A DNA stretch of 64,000 nt from contig OX597817.1 in NCBI GenBank assembly GCA_951406725.2, positions 168,392,001 through 168,456,000 on the forward strand. Reading direction: 5' to 3'. This stretch comes from Octopus vulgaris. Its lineage: Eukaryota. Within the stretch, counting starts at the first letter, position 1; every line of letters begins with the position of its first letter. Shown here piece by piece: positions 20,407 to 61,666 of this stretch. The position numbers are program-made.

Positions 20407-23400
20407 TGCACCATCCTTACTACTACTACTACTACCACCTGCACCATCCTTACTACTACTACTACCACCACCTGCACCATCCTTACTACTACTACTACTA
20501 CTACTACTACTGCCTATATCATCCTTACTACTGCTACCATCACCATCTATACCATCTTTACTACTACTGCTACCTCCATCCCTCACTACTACTACTACTA
20601 CTACTACCCTCACCCCATCCCCACCATCTCCCCACTCAAATAGCATACATAGTCTAAAGATGCAGAAAGCAAACAAACAAAACCAAACAAAATCAGAATA
20701 TAATTATGTAATCTCGTAATCTTGCATTCAATTTTAAATGTTTTCTTAAGTGTTTATTCCTCATGTTTTGTTGTTGTTGTTGTTCTTTTGCAGCAGAGAA
20801 CTGAAGAGAAAGATGTTACGTGTTGCATTAGGGACAGCTGTTACCGTGGCGCCAATGGTAATCTTCTTCCATGACAATATAGGTTTCATTGCAAAAGTTG
20901 AAGGAGCATCAATGCAGGTTAAGTAGCATCTTTTTACCAAAGTCCCTGAAATCCAACCCTCTAAATCTTAACTCCTTATCTCCCATTTTTTATACACCTA
21001 TACCCCAGATTTTACCCCTGATCTTAACCCTTAGCCCCTTATCCCAACTATGTAACAGACTGCAGAACATTAACTAATTATATATGCATTTTTGTACCAA
21101 ACACCTTTAGATCCAACCGTTTAAGCCCTAACTTCTAATCCTTACCCTAACTCCTTATTCTAACTCACGACCCTCATCTTTTATACTCATCTCCTATTCT
21201 TTACTTTTGATCTTAACTCCTAACCCAAAACATGCCACACCCCAGACCTTATGAATTAACTAATTATATGCAACCATGTTCGTTTAATTCATTTAAACTT
21301 GCTCTAAAATGTTTATTCACATTAAAAGAACATACAGTTTTTTTTAATCTGTTTATTTTCTGGTCCTGTCATGTTAAGAGAGTGTGAAAGCCAGAGTGTA
21401 TTAAACGCTAAGAGTGTAAGTGACAGTAGCTGAATTAAAAGGAGCGTGAGTTGAAAGATGAAGTGTTTATTACCCTTGGTGGAGTGACATTCTACAAAAA
21501 GAGAAAGAGTGAGTGAGTGAAGAAGAATTAAATTGAGAGGAAGTTAGGGTAAGAGGTTGGAGAGATAGAATGAAAGTCACTAAGGCTTTTCACTTCAAAA
21601 TGAAATCGTTTACATCCAGTTGATTGGATGTAAACGATGGCCATGTCATTAGGTGTCATGTTGAGTTCAGTTAACCCATGACCTATTGCTCATTTTAAAA
21701 TTACAGTTTTAAGATTATGAAGGTAATGAAAAACTTTATATTAAAGTTTATGTTTGTGTAATTTATTCCATACTCAAATAAACCAAGGTTGTCCTATCTG
21801 AACCCCCAAGAAAGTGGATGTTTGGATTGAAACTGTGATAAGTAATTTTATGACATCTCATCATTGGTTTAACATCTACTTTTCATTCTTGCATGTGTTG
21901 GCCAAAGTTTATTGAAAGAGATTTTCTATGGCATGGAGGGCTGGAAACAAAATGACACTAATTGGATGATAGGTGGAGGCGCAATGGCCCAGTGGTTAGG
22001 GCAGCGGACTCACGGTCATAGGATCGCGGTTTTGATTCCCAGACCGGGCGTTGTGAGTGTTTATTGAGCGAAAACACCTAAAGCTCCACGAGGCTCCAGC
22101 AGGGGATAGTGGTGATCCCTACTGTACTCTTTCACCACAACTTTCTCTCACTCTTACTTCCTGTTTCTGTTGTACCTGTATTTCATAGGGCCGGCCTTGT
22201 CACTCTCTGTGTCACACTGAATATCCCCGAGAACTACGTTAAGGGTACACGTGTCTGTGGAGTGCTCAGCCACTTACACGTTAATTTCACGAGCAGGCTG
22301 TTCCGTTGATTCGGATCAACCGGAACCCTCATCGTTGTAACCGACGGAGTGCTTCCCTTCCCTTAATTGGATGATGGTGATGCTTATTTGCAACTATCAT
22401 GTGTTGTGAAGACAAGGATAGGGACACACACACATGGTGGGCTTCTTTTAGTTTCCATCTACCAAATCTACTCACGAAGATTTGATTGGCCCACTTGCCC
22501 AAAGTGCCACATCATAGGACTGAACCTAAAACCATCTGGTTGTAGAGCAGACATCTTAACTACACATATATATCATCATTTAGCATCTGCTTTCCACGTT
22601 GGCATCGGTTAGACGGTCTGACTGGTGCTGGCAAGCCGGAGAGCTGCACCAAGTTCCAGTCTGATCTGGCATGGTTTCTACAGCTGGATGCCCTTGTTAA
22701 TGCCAACCACTCCAGGAGTGTAATAGGTGCTTTTTATGTGACACTGGCATTGGCCACAACCATGGTTTCACTTGGCTTGACAAGTCTTCTCAAGCATGGC
22801 ATATCACCACACACACACACACACACACACACGTGTGTTTTCTGTGTCTCTGGTCAAGTTTATGTTTATGCTGGTCTAAAAGCTGGACTTGTAATTTATG
22901 TTGTGCTTTCTCTTTTTATGTCCCTAAAATAAACAAATAAGTACTGAATATATCTGATCAAAGAGCTTCCAATAATTAGGTTAGAGGAAAGGAAGGCAGC
23001 AGACTGGCGGAAACGTTAGCACGCCGGGCGATATGCTTAGCGGTATTTCGTCTGCCACTACGTTCTGAGTTCAAATTCTGCCGAGGTCGACTTTGCCTTT
23101 CATCCATTCAGGGTCGATAAATTAAGTACCAGTTACGCACTGGGGTCGATGTAATCGACTTAATACCTATGTCTGTCCTTGTTTGTCCCCTCTGTGTTTA
23201 GCCCCTAGTGGGTAATAAAGAAATAGGTATTTCGTCTGTCACTATGTTCTGAGTTCAAATTCTGCCAAGGTCGACTTTGCCTTTCATCCATTCAGGGTCG
23301 ATTAAATAAGTACCAGTTATGCACTGGGGTCGATATAATCGACTTAATCTGTTTGTCTGTCCTTGCTTGTTCCTTCTGTGTTTAGCCCCTTGTGGGTAGT

Positions 23401-25236
23401 AAAGAAATAGGTTAGAGGAAAGGAAGAGGTTATCCTCAGATCTGAGACCTGGCTTGAATGCTTGCAATAGAATAGACTCTACTGAAGGCACCTAAGAGCC
23501 AAGTGGTGGTGTTAAACAGATAGCCAAAACTATAGTAGATTTGGCTATGGTTCTGTGCTGTGGTATCTTACCCCAAAACCTTATAATTATGAAGATCTTG
23601 ACCACACAACAATGCACATGGCCTAGTGGTTAAAGCAGCTGACTGTGGAGGCACATGGCCTAGTGGTTAGAGCAGCGGATTGTGGAGGCACATGACCTAG
23701 TGGTTAGAGCAGCGGATTGTGGAGGCACATGGCCTAGTGGTTAGAGCAGTGGACTGTAGAAGCACATGGCCTAGTGGTTAAAGCAGCGGACTGTGGAGGC
23801 ACATGGCCTAGTGGTTAGAGCAGTGGACTGTGGAGGCACATGGCCTAGTGGTTAGAGCAGTGGACTGTGGAGGCACATGGCCTAGTGGTTAGAGCAGCGG
23901 ACTGTGGAGGCACATGGCCTAGTGGTTAGAGCAGCGGACTGTGGAGGCACATGACCTAGTGGTTAGAGCAGCGGACTGTGGAGGCACATGGCCTAGTGGT
24001 TAGAGCAGTGGACTGTGGAGGCACATGGCCTAGTGGTTAGAGCAGCGGATTGTGGAGGCACATGACCTAGTGGTTAGAGCAGTGGACTGTGGAGGCACAT
24101 GGCCTAGTGGTTAGAGCAGTGGACTGTGGAGGCACATGGCCTGGTGGTTAGAGCAGCGGACTGTGGAGGCACATGGCCTAGTGGTTAGAGCAGCGGACTC
24201 GTGGTCAAGGGATCACGGGTTCGAATCTCAGACCGGGTGATGTGTGTGTTTATGAGCAAAACACCTAATCTCCACGCGGCTCCGGCAGAAGGTAATGGTG
24301 AACTTCTGCTGACTCTTTCGCCACAACTTTCTCTCACTCTTTCCTCCTGCATCTTGCAGCTCACCTGCGATGAACCAGTGTCCTGTCCAGGTGGGGAAGC
24401 TATACGCCAAGGAAACCGGGGAAACCGGCCCTTATGAGCCAGGCATGGCTTGAGAGCCCAGCGACATAGTTGATAGGAGAGTAAAGGAACACTGTTGCCC
24501 CCTCAAGCATATTTTTCAAAATTGGCGCCTTTTCAACCATTTTATTTTTTTTTCAAACTCTTAGTTTCATACATAATGACATCGTTACTGAAACATGAAA
24601 TTAATGAATGTAAAATACAATTATGTATATTATCACTAATGAATTATTTCATTTAATAAAAGAGAAATGTGTTAATTGTTTGGTATGTTTCATGGCATCT
24701 TCTTTTTTTTTTTATGTGCTTGGTCCCCCTAACTGGCCCCACCCCTGCTGTCACGATGTATCTTGCTTTCCCTCAGCTAACTTCCCCCTGTCTTTCTTTC
24801 TCCCACTCAACACACCCTCCTTCCTTATTTAGTTCCCTCTATTCCCTTTCTCTCTTTCTCTCTTACTACTCATCTCTTCCTCTTTCTTTCTTTCAACTCT
24901 CTCTCTCTCTCTCTCCCTCTTTCATTCTCTCTCACTCAACTGTCCTTTTTTCTCATTCATCTCTCTTGCTCTGCTTCTTTCTTCTCTCTCAAGTCTCTCT
25001 CTCTTTTCTCTTAACTCTCTCTCTCTCTCTTCTCTCTCAACTATCTCTCTTTCTTCTCTCTTAACTCTCTATCTCTTTTCTCTTAACTCTCTCTCCCTCT
25101 CTTCTCTCTCCACTATCTCTCTTTCTTCTCTCTCAAGTCTCTCTCTCTTTTCTCTTAACTCTCTCTCTCTCTCTCTCTCTTCTCTCTCAACTATCTCTCT
25201 CTCTTCTCTCTCAAGTCTCTCTCTCTTTTCTCTTAA

Positions 25237-60500: not shown

Positions 60501-61666
60501 CTTCAAGTAATCCATAAAGGAAGAACTGCCAGTGACTCTTAAATTTACTAATCTGGCTGGAGGAGAGATCAAGAATTTTCAGATTTTTCAGGTGAGGTAA
60601 TTCTTGGACAATTTTAAATTTGTTTTTGGACAATAGAAAAGCTTCTGCTAAGTTATTGGAGATATTTGGCATTGAAACCAAATTGCTGTTACTGCAGTTA
60701 ATTGTTTTTAGATTCTTATAGTTGGCATAAGAAACCACATCACATGTGCAGTTTGTTGCACAATGTGTTGTCCATGGATTTCTTAGTGGATTATCTCGGA
60801 TTGGCTGCGGATTGGGTGCCAGCACTTGGTTGCTGGTAATGTTGTCTCTATTGCTCTTAATTCCATGGACAGAATTGATAATGGTAATGAGTGAGAGCAC
60901 ACCTAACAGACTGTATACAGGTGACCTCATTCTTCATTCTATGCTGACTTGAATTGAATGATAAAACCATAAATCGGACAGTGTTGCATGCTGCTATTCT
61001 TTGGATTACTGCTTCACACCAGGCGAGAGATTTTCTCTTGTGCAGCCATCATCTCTTGTAACCATAGAATATCTGAAATAAACACAAATAACAGAAATCA
61101 GTAAAGAAATATAGACTTACACTGATATAAATATTTAATACCCTGTACACTATACACCCTGTATACAACATACACTTAACTGAATCTTTCAAACAACATT
61201 CATATAATCCAATACTCTTTTCTAGTAACTGTATCCAAGACTTGAGTTATCCAATATATTGAATATATATTTTTCAGTGAAGAGAGATTTGGCTGTTATA
61301 TTTAGCAAGTTGAGCAACGCGTTTGCAAAAAACCATATCCCATAAGGCAACATAAAACACAAACCCAATAACACAGTAAAAGCCAACCTGATAGAAACCA
61401 GAGATAACTTCAAACACTACACCAATACCACATAACCGAATGAAACACACACGTACACATGTGGAGAAAATAAATAAAATAATGATAATGAAACAAACCC
61501 AGGTGTGGCTGTGTGGTAAGAAGCTTGCTTCCCAACCACATGGTTCCGGGTTCAGTCCCACTGCATGGCACCTTTGGCAAGTGTTTCCTACTATAGCCTT
61601 GGGCCAACCAAAGCCTTGTGAGTGGATTTGGCAGACAGAAACTGAAAGAAGCCCATTGTATGTATG

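What the first reader, a model, noticed from the sequence alone, without database searches (positions are those of the whole stretch)
20794..61074. LRRN gene nested antisense inside the same IMMP2L intron as human LRRN3: a probable bilaterian-ancient nested gene pair
Seen in sequence: two plus-strand IMMP2L exons (20813-20917, 51047-51150), then a complete minus-strand LRR-Ig-FN3-TM gene (58777-60930) about 7.6 kb after the 104-bp exon's donor. No later IMMP2L exon (the ...IIKRV catalytic-Lys exon) lies in between. Established: human LRRN3 is nested antisense in intron 3 of IMMP2L, the intron after the PSLNP...GDIVSLV exon, and this 7q31 locus is disrupted in Tourette/autism cases. Inference: same host, same intron, same orientation and same guest family in an octopus-like genome imply the nesting predates the protostome-deuterostome split and survived heavy TE invasion. 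That suggests functional coupling such as shared cis-regulation or transcriptional interference. I cannot verify whether this invertebrate nesting has already been reported.
Basis: partly seen in the sequence, partly recalled or inferred. Interest (0 to 1): 0.92.

Follow-up and report, generated by a model that had tools for sequence, protein, structure and literature searches.

The report
Octopus LRRN gene inside IMMP2L intron
An octopus neuronal-type LRR receptor gene sits backwards inside the third intron of the mitochondrial protease gene IMMP2L, as LRRN3 does in humans, so this gene-within-a-gene arrangement is probably very old, though other animal groups are still unchecked.

Summary
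The window is Octopus DNA. It carries IMMP2L exon 1 (17506-17552), exon 2 (20794-20917) and exon 3 (51047-51150) on the plus strand. These match annotated Octopus IMMP2L proteins letter for letter. An intact 717-aa ORF lies on the minus strand at 58777-60930, 7.6 kb past the exon 3 donor. Residues 71-169 of IMMP2L match nowhere in the window (best E 0.15). The LRR gene therefore lies in the third intron, antisense. Papers place human LRRN3 in the "large third intron" too.

The guest has 12 LRRs, one Ig domain, an FN3-like sandwich, a TM helix and a short tail. Its ORF sits on one exon behind a putative 5'-UTR intron. Among the vertebrate families I know, only LRRN has this build. NCBI names its relatives LRRN1(-like), and the ESM Atlas ranks chordate LRRN3/LRRN1 clusters first.

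I could not fetch vertebrate LRRN sequences or any animal genome. Three things stay unshown: a phylogeny, the exact intron homology, and a survey of other phyla. Common ancestry of the nesting is the most likely reading (about 0.7). Functional coupling is untested, and simple lock-in of a nested gene explains retention as well. I rate it a new member of a known kind, of moderate interest.

The parts
17506..17552 (+). IMMP2L exon 1 (3' part; exon start unknown). It holds an ATG that the O. vulgaris model uses, and is otherwise 5' UTR for the ATG at 20813.
   Evidence: Residues 1-15 of P0124 match at 100%. The donor is CAG|GTATTT after 17552. The reading frame runs on into 20794 exactly as in P0124.
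20794..20917 (+). IMMP2L exon 2: 19 nt of leader, then ATG at 20813 and 35 codons, including the GASMQ serine motif. The following intron is phase 0.
   Evidence: 100% identity to residues 1-35 of P0125, P0123 and P0124.
51047..51150 (+). IMMP2L exon 3: 104 bp, residues 36-69 plus two bases of codon 70. The following intron is phase 2.
   Evidence: The exon-only search gave 4 hits among 5 candidates; 3 are named Octopus IMMP2L/protease subunit 2 and 1 is unnamed. tblastn E 2e-20.
51151..64000 (+). Visible part of IMMP2L intron 3 (more than 12.85 kb, running off the window). This is the host intron.
   Evidence: No match to P0125 residues 71-169 anywhere in the window.
53565..53620 (+). Alternative terminal exon used by the O. 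vulgaris 109-aa model (P0124). It gives a truncated protein that ends inside intron 3, 5.2 kb before the guest gene.
   Evidence: Acceptor TTGCAG| and stop TAA at 53618-53620. Residues 90-109 of P0124 match with E 5e-7. No transcript evidence was seen here.
58777..60930 (-). LRRN-like gene: complete 717-aa ORF (stop included) on a single exon.
   Evidence: 97% identical to O. bimaculoides 'leucine-rich repeat neuronal protein 1', 83% to Argonauta, and 36-41% over at least 91% of its length to Haliotis, Owenia, Ruditapes and Lottia proteins.
60931..61072 (-). 5' leader of the coding exon, behind a putative acceptor (AG at 61074-61073 after a pyrimidine tract). It holds six upstream ATGs. The first (non-coding) exon of the guest is not identified and may lie beyond 64000.
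   Evidence: The acceptor is inferred from consensus only.
58563..58672 (-). Two AATAAA signals (58672-58667 and 58568-58563), 105 and 209 nt after the stop: the likely 3' end of the guest transcript.
   Evidence: Read. Inferred.
59593..60762 (-). Residues 57-446: LRRNT cysteines, 12 LRRs of 24-residue period, and LRRCT cysteines.
   Evidence: Conserved Cys57/61/63/79 and 395/397/425/446, with Asn every 24 residues, in 38 aligned relatives. Twelve parallel strands at 97-363 in the model. LRR_8 hits.
59317..59571 (-). Residues 454-538: a single I-set Ig domain (Cys470-Cys521).
   Evidence: Pfam I-set E 1.2e-10; conserved cysteines; model.
59047..59304 (-). Residues 543-628: membrane-proximal FN3-like seven-strand sandwich.
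   Evidence: Seven strands, with 10-residue pLDDT block means of 76-94. Pfam fn3 only E 5.6e-4, below the cutoff. Nine of the relatives (P0007-P0014, P0016) carry PF00041.
58780..58995 (-). Residues 646-717: TM helix (646-667) and a 50-aa cytoplasmic tail with the conserved motif IPLENLYHPPSTP.
   Evidence: Hydropathy; helix 644-674. The tail motif IPL[ED]NLY.P occurs in 34 of 337 stored proteins, all of this family.

Best explanation
The window is Octopus DNA (O. vulgaris/sinensis-like). It holds the 5' part of the IMMP2L gene, which encodes mitochondrial inner membrane protease subunit 2 of the peptidase S26 family. A single-copy-looking, intact gene for a neuronal-type LRR-Ig-FN3 membrane protein lies antisense in the third intron. 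This gene is the octopus counterpart of the vertebrate LRRN1-3 family. Host, guest family, intron ordinal and orientation all match human IMMP2L/LRRN3, so the simplest history is that the guest was already nested in IMMP2L in the last common ancestor of molluscs and vertebrates. On that view LRRN3 kept the ancestral position after the vertebrate genome duplications.

Most likely mechanism of retention (inferred, not shown): two effects that add up. (1) Lock-in: any inversion or translocation with one break inside the intron destroys a single-copy host, and clean excision needs two breaks in the same intron. (2) Regulatory entanglement of the genomic-regulatory-block type: enhancers of the neurally patterned guest lie scattered in the long introns of the broadly expressed bystander host. 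This has been proposed for human LRRN3 (target) and IMMP2L/DOCK4 (bystanders).

Shown here: the exons, the ORF, the order and strands, the protein architecture, and the absence of later host exons in the window. Inferred: completion of the host beyond 64000, orthology, ancestry, and any coupling.
For: Host identity. The exon 3-only search returned 3 named Octopus IMMP2L proteins and 1 unnamed 171-aa relative, 4 hits among 5 candidates. P0125 carries Peptidase_S26. Exons 1-3 map at 100% with canonical splice sites. Three independent annotations (P0123, P0124, P0125) all diverge exactly after the exon 3 donor.

Nesting. P0125 residues 71-169 are absent from the whole window. On a collinear gene they must therefore lie beyond 64000, past the guest at 58777-61072.

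Guest family. The protein has 12 LRRs, Ig, an FN3-like domain, a TM helix and a 50-aa tail. This matches the description of vertebrate Lrrn1: 12 LRRs, Ig, FnIII, a short tail, and the whole ORF on exon 2 behind a large intron 1 (PMC2225406, passages and section 10). NCBI names 5 of the 8 named full-length relatives 'LRRN1(-like)'. In the ESM Atlas the seven best named clusters for the whole protein are chordate LRRN3 (4) and LRRN1 (3) at 0.99-0.98, ahead of LRFN and LRIT. For residues 440-717 alone a chordate LRRN1 cluster ranks first at 0.93. The best solved fold is LINGO-1, followed by NGL and SALM. LINGO (Lrrn6) and NGL (Lrrc4) are the families that Dolan 2007 clusters with Lrrn1-3.

Human arrangement. 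LRRN3 is nested antisense in the third intron of IMMP2L (PMC3565204, PMC2934739, PMC4255718). The pair is also nested in coelacanth and/or zebrafish (PMC3933685 Table 1).

Regulatory-block reading. PMC6906185 Table 1 lists LRRN3 as target and IMMP2L and DOCK4 as bystanders. The host introns here are long: 30.1 kb and more than 12.85 kb.
Against: No phylogeny with vertebrate LRRN1-3, LINGO, NGL, LRFN or LRIT could be built. The Atlas result is a lead, not a test, and for the C-terminal half the margin is small (0.93 against 0.92).

Only octopods were examined, and no other invertebrate genome could be read. Dolan 2007 found no fly or worm member of the Lrrn1-3 cluster, so the pair cannot be traced in the two classic protostome models.

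Intron homology is shown by ordinal only. [quoted passage not shown] IMMP2L also offers very large intronic targets.

The guest tail reads YHPP, not a canonical YxxPhi endocytic motif. Host exons 4 onward and the guest's first exon were not seen, so an interleaved rather than strictly nested layout is not excluded.
Confidence: 0.62

Rival explanations
1. Convergence. An LRR-Ig-FN3 gene entered the large IMMP2L intron independently in the cephalopod and vertebrate lineages, because short single-exon LRR genes nest readily and IMMP2L introns are very large targets.
For: LRR-TM genes sit in introns of several unrelated hosts: LRRTM in CTNNA, LRTM in CACNA2D, LRRN1 in SUMF1. The Box in PMC3565204 speaks of convergent evolution of such nesting. 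The title of PMC3933685 places the origin of the LRRTM/alpha-catenin nesting within vertebrate evolution. Nested genes accumulate over time by insertion of young duplicates into introns (PMC8467205 introduction). No third lineage was examined here.
Against: The same host, the same guest family, the same intron ordinal and the same orientation would all have to recur. Under random placement I estimate the chance at roughly 1e-4 or less; this is my own estimate, and the span of the octopus host is unknown. In one search the only octopod relatives were one O. bimaculoides and one Argonauta protein, so the guest does not look like a young duplicate. Relatives occur in gastropods, bivalves, an annelid and chelicerates.
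Confidence: 0.13
2. Selected functional coupling by transcription. Antisense transcription of the guest and read-through of the host interfere with each other. This gives reciprocal expression or premature host termination, and that interplay is why the arrangement is kept.
For: Human LRRN3 and IMMP2L are described as discordantly expressed, and changes to mouse Immp2l appear to raise Lrrn3 (PMC3565204 passages). Two Octopus annotations end IMMP2L early, directly after exon 3: P0123 (91 aa) and P0124 (109 aa). The terminal exon of P0124 lies at 53565-53620, just upstream of the guest. A paper seen only in a search listing (PMC3192792) reports in its title that nested genes induce exonization and cryptic polyadenylation in hosts.
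Against: No expression data were available here. The short isoforms are computer models, and the O. bimaculoides tail is not in this window. Genome-wide, most mammalian host/nested pairs show no positive or negative expression relation (PMC11694760 passage). Interference is usually viewed as a cost, not as a reason for retention (PMC8467205 passages).
Confidence: 0.15
3. Not truly nested. Exons 1-3 are a truncated gene copy or a short-isoform gene that ends at 53620, and the LRR gene is simply its convergent downstream neighbour. Alternatively, an assembly join creates the appearance of nesting.
For: Exons 4 onward are not in the window. Two annotated models stop within intron 3.
Against: A 169-aa O. 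sinensis model with a full Peptidase_S26 match begins with exactly these two coding exons. The splice sites and frames are intact, and the window holds no N. A protease lacking its C-terminal two thirds, including the stretch with the recalled catalytic lysine, would be inactive, so the full-length form must exist.
Confidence: 0.05
4. The guest is not an LRRN orthologue. It belongs to another LRR-Ig family, such as a LINGO-like or lineage-specific family, so the resemblance to the human pair is only 'some LRR gene in IMMP2L'.
For: The best solved fold is LINGO-1 (E 3e-21). No tree with vertebrate sequences was possible. The NCBI names are automatic.
Against: The PDB has no LRRN entry to compete. 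The solved LINGO-1 ectodomain covers only LRR plus Ig, whereas this protein has an extra seven-strand FN3-like domain. By my recall, LRFN and LRIT have about half as many LRRs. The Atlas ranks LRRN3/LRRN1 above LRFN and LRIT. The tail motif IPL.NLY.P resembles my recollection of vertebrate LRRN1 tails, which I could not test.
Confidence: 0.12

Closest known systems
Human/vertebrate IMMP2L-LRRN3 nested pair (7q31)
   Same: The host is the S26 mitochondrial protease gene. The guest is antisense in the third intron. The guest has 12 LRRs, Ig, FN3, TM and a short tail, with its ORF on one exon behind a 5'-UTR intron. The host introns are long.
   Different: This is a cephalopod. The guest would be the undivided counterpart of LRRN1-3, not of LRRN3 specifically. 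Orthology and exact intron homology are not demonstrated. The scale is smaller: the guest lies 7.6 kb from exon 3.
Synapsin-TIMP nested pair, reported as conserved from Drosophila to human (recalled: Pohar et al. 1999, not read here). SYN1/TIMP1 appears as a nested pair in PMC3933685 Table 1.
   Same: A protein-coding guest inside an intron of an unrelated host, retained across the protostome-deuterostome split.
   Different: Different gene families. That case is documented in print, whereas this one I could not find in main texts.
LRRTM genes nested in alpha-catenin (CTNNA) genes
   Same: A neuronal single-exon LRR-TM guest lies in an intron of an unrelated host, at neuropsychiatric loci.
   Different: The title of PMC3933685 places the origin of that nesting within vertebrate evolution. 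The present pair, if ancestral, is far older.
Conserved ancestral microsyntenic pairs and genomic regulatory blocks (Irimia et al. 2012, PMC3514665; Becker and Lenhard model)
   Same: Two unrelated neighbouring genes are kept together across phyla: a long-intron bystander and a developmentally regulated target. PMC6906185 already treats LRRN3 as the target and IMMP2L as a bystander in human.
   Different: No conserved non-coding elements or enhancer contacts were tested here. The guest is a receptor, not a transcription factor. Whether the pair is among the 593 listed bilaterian pairs is unknown, because that list is in closed supplements.

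Membership tests
IMMP2L / IMP2 (peptidase S26, mitochondrial inner membrane protease subunit 2) | Sequence membership in Peptidase_S26 and identity with annotated IMMP2L | tested here: met
   The window exons equal residues 1-70 of P0125, which matches PF10502 at E 1.1e-20. Three of the 4 hits to exon 3 are named mitochondrial inner membrane protease subunit 2. 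The single exons alone are too short for Pfam or PDB: 0 hits.
IMMP2L / IMP2 (peptidase S26, mitochondrial inner membrane protease subunit 2) | Catalytic Ser-Lys dyad | tested here: inconclusive
   The serine motif GASMQP spans the exon 2/exon 3 junction. The lysine region (LVKRI in P0125) lies in an exon outside the window. The assignment of both residues is recalled, not tested.
LRRN1-3 (NLRR) family | LRRNT, 12 LRRs and LRRCT | tested here: met
   Asn spaced every 24 residues from 103 to 367 and conserved flanking cysteines in 38 relatives. Twelve strands at 97-363 in the model. PMC2225406 gives 12 LRRs for Lrrn1.
LRRN1-3 (NLRR) family | One Ig domain followed by one membrane-proximal FN3 domain | tested here: met
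   I-set E 1.2e-10. A seven-strand sandwich at 543-628 with 10-residue pLDDT block means of 76-94. Pfam fn3 is below the cutoff in this protein (E 5.6e-4), but PF00041 is present in nine relatives (P0007-P0014, P0016).
LRRN1-3 (NLRR) family | Single TM helix and a short cytoplasmic tail with YxxPhi and di-leucine endocytic motifs | tested here: inconclusive
   The TM helix at 646-667 and the 50-aa tail are met. The tyrosine motif reads YHPP in octopus, not YxxPhi, whereas other relatives have YSPL. No di-leucine was checked.
LRRN1-3 (NLRR) family | Whole ORF on one exon preceded by a 5'-UTR intron | tested here: met
   The ORF is uninterrupted. A consensus acceptor lies 142 nt upstream of the ATG. 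No transcript evidence. Vertebrate structure from PMC2225406.
LRRN1-3 (NLRR) family | Groups with vertebrate LRRN1-3 in a phylogeny, excluding LINGO, NGL, LRFN, LRIT and LRIG | not testable with these tools
   No vertebrate LRRN sequence could be fetched. Partial result: in a FastTree of 57 rows the family excludes LRIG/lambik (100*), a tartan/capricious-like protein and a TRIL-like protein. Atlas leads favour LRRN.
Bilaterian conserved microsyntenic pair / genomic regulatory block | The same two orthologous genes adjacent in distant phyla | tested here: inconclusive
   Octopus is shown here and vertebrates come from the literature. Guest orthology is not proven, and there is no third lineage.
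Bilaterian conserved microsyntenic pair / genomic regulatory block | Conserved non-coding elements or enhancers of the target inside bystander introns | not testable with these tools
   No second animal genome or chromatin data. Non-repeated stretches that could be screened are listed, for example 51986-53842 and 58105-61499.
Bilaterian conserved microsyntenic pair / genomic regulatory block | A bystander with unusually long introns | tested here: met
   Intron 2 is 30,129 bp and intron 3 exceeds 12,850 bp, for a 169-aa protein. Irimia 2012 gives long introns as one prediction.

The most novel reading that the evidence does not exclude
IMMP2L/LRRN is a host-guest gene pair that has stayed nested in the same intron and orientation since before molluscs and vertebrates diverged. 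On this reading it is held together because IMMP2L introns carry the neural cis-regulatory landscape of the LRRN gene, making it an ancient genomic regulatory block. Host transcripts may also be cut short upstream of the antisense guest, as the two truncated Octopus isoforms hint. If so, non-coding risk variants mapped to human IMMP2L (Tourette syndrome, autism, schizophrenia) would act through LRRN3. The far more compact octopus locus would then be a natural comparator for finding the essential elements.
Probability: 0.3. Interest if true: 0.72.

Novelty: new member of a known kind. Interest (0 to 1): 0.5.

Why it matters
Nested protein-coding pairs retained across the protostome-deuterostome split are rare. 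The one I recall is synapsin-TIMP. A second one at a locus repeatedly tied to Tourette syndrome, autism and schizophrenia would have two uses. It would support reading IMMP2L association signals as regulatory signals for LRRN3. It would also show that an LRRN-type receptor existed in the bilaterian ancestor, although flies and worms lack one (Dolan 2007). The claim is cheap to test on public animal genomes. The octopus locus is compact near the guest, which lies 7.6 kb from exon 3, so it could be used to search for shared non-coding elements. If the pair already sits in published microsynteny tables, the finding is only a confirmation.

Tried and rejected
1. Single exons against Pfam and the PDB gave 0 hits, because 34-35 aa is too short. 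Identity came instead from the exon 3-only search.

2. I tried to obtain vertebrate LRRN sequences in three ways. The single-protein search listed the best 120 of 455 hits. The profile search listed the best 120 of 1,221. The exhaustive search listed the best 150 of 54,841. All three lists fill up with invertebrate relatives or giant multi-LRR proteins, and none showed a recognisable vertebrate LRRN.

3. The FastTree is only a family sketch. From 160 stored ids I kept the 51 that were 560-960 aa long and dropped 109 giant or fragmentary ones. I added the window protein and 5 named outgroups. Most rows are unnamed.

4. The PDB has no LRRN entry, so the fold search can only point to neighbouring families.

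5. Human exon structure: Petek 2001 and Patel 2011 are not held. The held papers give only 'third intron'.

6. A prior report of the invertebrate nesting was sought four ways: IMMP2L+LRRN3+nested (7 papers), IMMP2L+microsynteny (1), IMMP2L+synten* (14) and Lrrn*+microsynten* (5). None describes it in the titles and abstract openings listed or the passages I read. The main text of Irimia 2012 contains neither gene name, and its pair tables are in closed supplements. The last paper search was badly framed and returned nothing useful.

7. Other genes or RNAs in the window: 0 Rfam families, 0 tRNAs, and 0 of 10 long non-tandem ORFs with a Pfam hit. Whether a DOCK4-like gene lies upstream (1-17 kb) was not checked, for lack of a reference protein.

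8. Genome contigs holds only bacteria and archaea, so it was not used. No complex prediction was run, because no binding claim is made.

Full report
WHAT IS THERE

The window has no N and is 40.9% G+C. On the plus strand, 20813-20917 reads as 35 codons from an ATG. An AG acceptor ends at 20793 and the donor is CAG|GTTAAG. The stretch 51047-51150 is a 104-bp exon with acceptor TTACAG| and donor AT|GTAAGT, ending in phase 2. On the minus strand, 58777-60930 is an uninterrupted 717-aa ORF.

THE HOST

I therefore searched exon 3 alone, as one contiguous window reference of 41 codons that includes seven in-frame intron codons.

That search gave 4 hits among 5 candidates. Three are Octopus proteins named mitochondrial inner membrane protease subunit 2 (O. 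bimaculoides isoform X2, O. vulgaris, O. sinensis isoform X2). The fourth is an unnamed 171-aa relative.

The 169-aa O. sinensis protein P0125 matches Peptidase_S26 at E 1.1e-20. In local tblastn against the window it aligns at residues 1-35 (100%, E 1.9e-17) and residues 34-70 (E 2.1e-20). The next best hit is E 0.15, on the wrong strand and inside a repeat. None of seven short motifs from residues 71-169 occurs in any of the six frames.

The O. vulgaris model P0124 adds two exons.
- An upstream exon: ATG at 17506, donor CAG|GTATTT after 17552, read in frame into 20794.
- An alternative last exon: 53565-53620, acceptor TTGCAG|, stop at 53618.

The window therefore holds exons 1, 2 and 3. Intron 1 is 3.2 kb, intron 2 is 30.1 kb, and intron 3 is more than 12.85 kb and runs off the window. 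A full-length model starts with exactly these exons, and nothing of its last 99 residues is in the window. On a collinear gene the remaining exons must lie beyond 64000, past the LRR gene. This is an inference, but a strong one.

THE GUEST

Pfam finds LRR_8 (E 3e-52, six stretches), I-set (E 1.2e-10) and a sub-threshold fn3 (E 5.6e-4). I aligned the protein with 37 relatives and predicted its structure with AlphaFold2 from that alignment (mean pLDDT 84.2, pTM 0.74). Together they show:
- a signal-like helix;
- LRRNT cysteines;
- twelve LRR strands at 97-363, with Asn every 24 residues;
- LRRCT cysteines;
- an Ig domain (Cys470-Cys521);
- a seven-strand FN3-like sandwich at 543-628;
- a TM helix at 644-674;
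- a disordered 50-aa tail.

A consensus acceptor lies 142 nt upstream of the ATG (AG at 61074-61073), and two AATAAA signals follow the stop. The gene therefore probably has a non-coding first exon further upstream, possibly beyond the window.

This is the build and gene structure described for vertebrate Lrrn1: 12 LRRs, Ig, FnIII, a short tail, and the entire ORF on exon 2 behind a large intron 1 (PMC2225406; passages and section 10 read).

The closest proteins are:
- O. bimaculoides 'leucine-rich repeat neuronal protein 1' at 97% identity;
- Argonauta at 83%;
- full-length relatives at 36-41% in Haliotis, Owenia, Ruditapes and Lottia;
- relatives at 27-31% in a horseshoe crab and a mite.

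Of the eight named relatives, five carry NCBI's automatic name LRRN1(-like). A tail motif IPL[ED]NLY.P recurs in 34 of the 337 stored proteins, all of this family.

IS IT AN LRRN ORTHOLOGUE?

No list showed a recognisable vertebrate LRRN: not the best 120 of 455 hits, the best 120 of 1,221, or the best 150 of 54,841. Giant multi-LRR proteins crowd the lists.

What remains are leads.
- In the ESM Atlas the seven best named clusters for the whole protein are chordate LRRN3 (four) and LRRN1 (three) at 0.99-0.98, ahead of LRFN and LRIT.
- For residues 440-717 alone a chordate LRRN1 cluster ranks first, but narrowly: 0.93 against 0.92 for generic Ig-FN3 adhesion molecules.
- The PDB has no LRRN. 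The best solved fold is LINGO-1 (E 3e-21), then NGL1-3, SALM2/5 and AMIGO-1. LINGO (Lrrn6) and NGL (Lrrc4) are the families Dolan et al. 2007 cluster next to Lrrn1-3 (PMC2235866 passages).
- The solved LINGO-1 ectodomain is LRR plus Ig only. By my recollection, the LRFN and LRIT families have about half as many LRRs. Twelve LRRs plus Ig plus FN3 therefore points to LRRN.
- In a FastTree of 57 rows the family excludes LRIG/lambik, a tartan/capricious-like protein and a TRIL-like protein. The rows were 51 of 160 stored ids kept by length (560-960 aa), the window protein and 5 named outgroups. Most rows are unnamed, and no vertebrate LRRN is present.

I put orthology at about 0.85.

COMPARISON WITH THE HUMAN LOCUS

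Three papers state that LRRN3 lies within the large third intron of IMMP2L, and one says antisense (PMC3565204, PMC2934739, PMC4255718; passages). [quoted passage not shown]

Octopus thus shares the host, the guest type, the intron ordinal and the orientation. I did not verify that the human third intron interrupts the same codon.

HOW OLD, AND WHY KEPT?

With one protostome lineage and the vertebrates sharing four independent features, common ancestry is much more likely than two independent insertions. My rough estimate for chance recurrence is 1e-4 or less.

It still rests on two lineages. No animal genome collection was available, so bivalves, annelids, amphioxus and the rest remain unchecked. 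Flies and worms cannot help, because they lack an Lrrn1-3 member.

A gene inside an intron of a single-copy host cannot easily be separated from it without breaking the host, so nesting tends to persist. PMC8467205 reports that nesting events predominate over un-nesting. PMC11694760 finds no general expression relation between host and guest.

A regulatory-block explanation is plausible. PMC6906185 already lists LRRN3 as the target and IMMP2L and DOCK4 as bystanders in human. The octopus host has the long introns expected of a bystander (Irimia et al. 2012).

A transcription-based interplay is hinted at by two annotated Octopus isoforms that end right after exon 3 (P0123, P0124). One of them uses an exon 5.2 kb upstream of the guest. 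These are computer models without transcript evidence here.

REPEATS

46.7% of the window recurs within the window, and 58% of intron 2 does. Exons 2 and 3 and the LRR ORF are unique. The repeats are SINE-like units of 180-300 nt in both orientations, plus several satellites. No long ORF has a Pfam hit (0 of 10), and there are no Rfam or tRNA matches. 'Survived heavy repeat invasion' is a fair description.

IS IT IN PRINT?

Four searches returned no paper that describes the invertebrate arrangement, judging by the listed titles and abstract openings and the passages I read: IMMP2L+LRRN3+nested (7 papers), IMMP2L+microsynteny (1), IMMP2L+synten* (14) and Lrrn*+microsynten* (5). The main text of Irimia et al. 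2012 names neither gene.

VERDICT

This is a new member of a known kind, namely deeply conserved nested or microsyntenic pairs. It is of moderate interest because of the disease locus and because it can be tested quickly on public genomes.

Noticed in passing
window 46543-50754 (+): A 4.2-kb satellite of a 22-bp unit (TCCACTCCTGTGTTACCCTTGC, about 192 copies, 91% matches). It ends 292 nt upstream of the IMMP2L exon 3 acceptor. It is strongly pyrimidine-rich on the sense strand (GC skew about -0.5, AT skew about -0.6) and creates false ORFs of up to 1,416 aa.
   Followed up: partly
window 19752-20537 (+): A TAC/CAC-based minisatellite (units of 33, 48 and 63 bp) that ends 257 nt upstream of IMMP2L exon 2. 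It gives long false ORFs in five frames.
   Followed up: no
window 26980-27960 and 36448-38183: Two separate arrays (3.9 and 6.9 copies) of the same 251-bp unit lie 8.5 kb apart inside intron 2. A 185-bp array at 28332-29253 has a unit related to the dispersed SINE-like family and forms a 368-nt inverted repeat with 23042-23409.
   Followed up: no
window 9643, 15809, 22981, 40392, 43188, 44488, 51735, 53833, 62171 and others: A dispersed SINE-like family of about 180-300 nt has at least 12 copies in both orientations. At least two further families have 6-7 copies each. None has a tRNA or Rfam match.
   Followed up: partly
window 53565-53620 (+): An alternative last exon from the O. vulgaris IMMP2L model would give a 109-aa protein lacking most of the protease domain. 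O. bimaculoides has a different 91-aa short isoform that also branches off after exon 3, and its tail is not in this window.
   Followed up: partly
window 61072-60931 (-): The 142-nt leader between the putative acceptor and the LRR gene's ATG holds six upstream ATGs with short ORFs of 11-37 codons. The two nearest the main ATG run out of frame into the main ORF.
   Followed up: no
window 24849-25635 (+): A long imperfect (TC)n / 22-bp CT-rich tract of about 790 bp lies in intron 2.
   Followed up: no
window 1-17505: The 17.5 kb upstream of IMMP2L exon 1 was not examined for a neighbouring gene. In human, DOCK4 lies next to IMMP2L. The two long ORFs tested there (987-1523 and 497-934) had no Pfam hit.
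   Followed up: no
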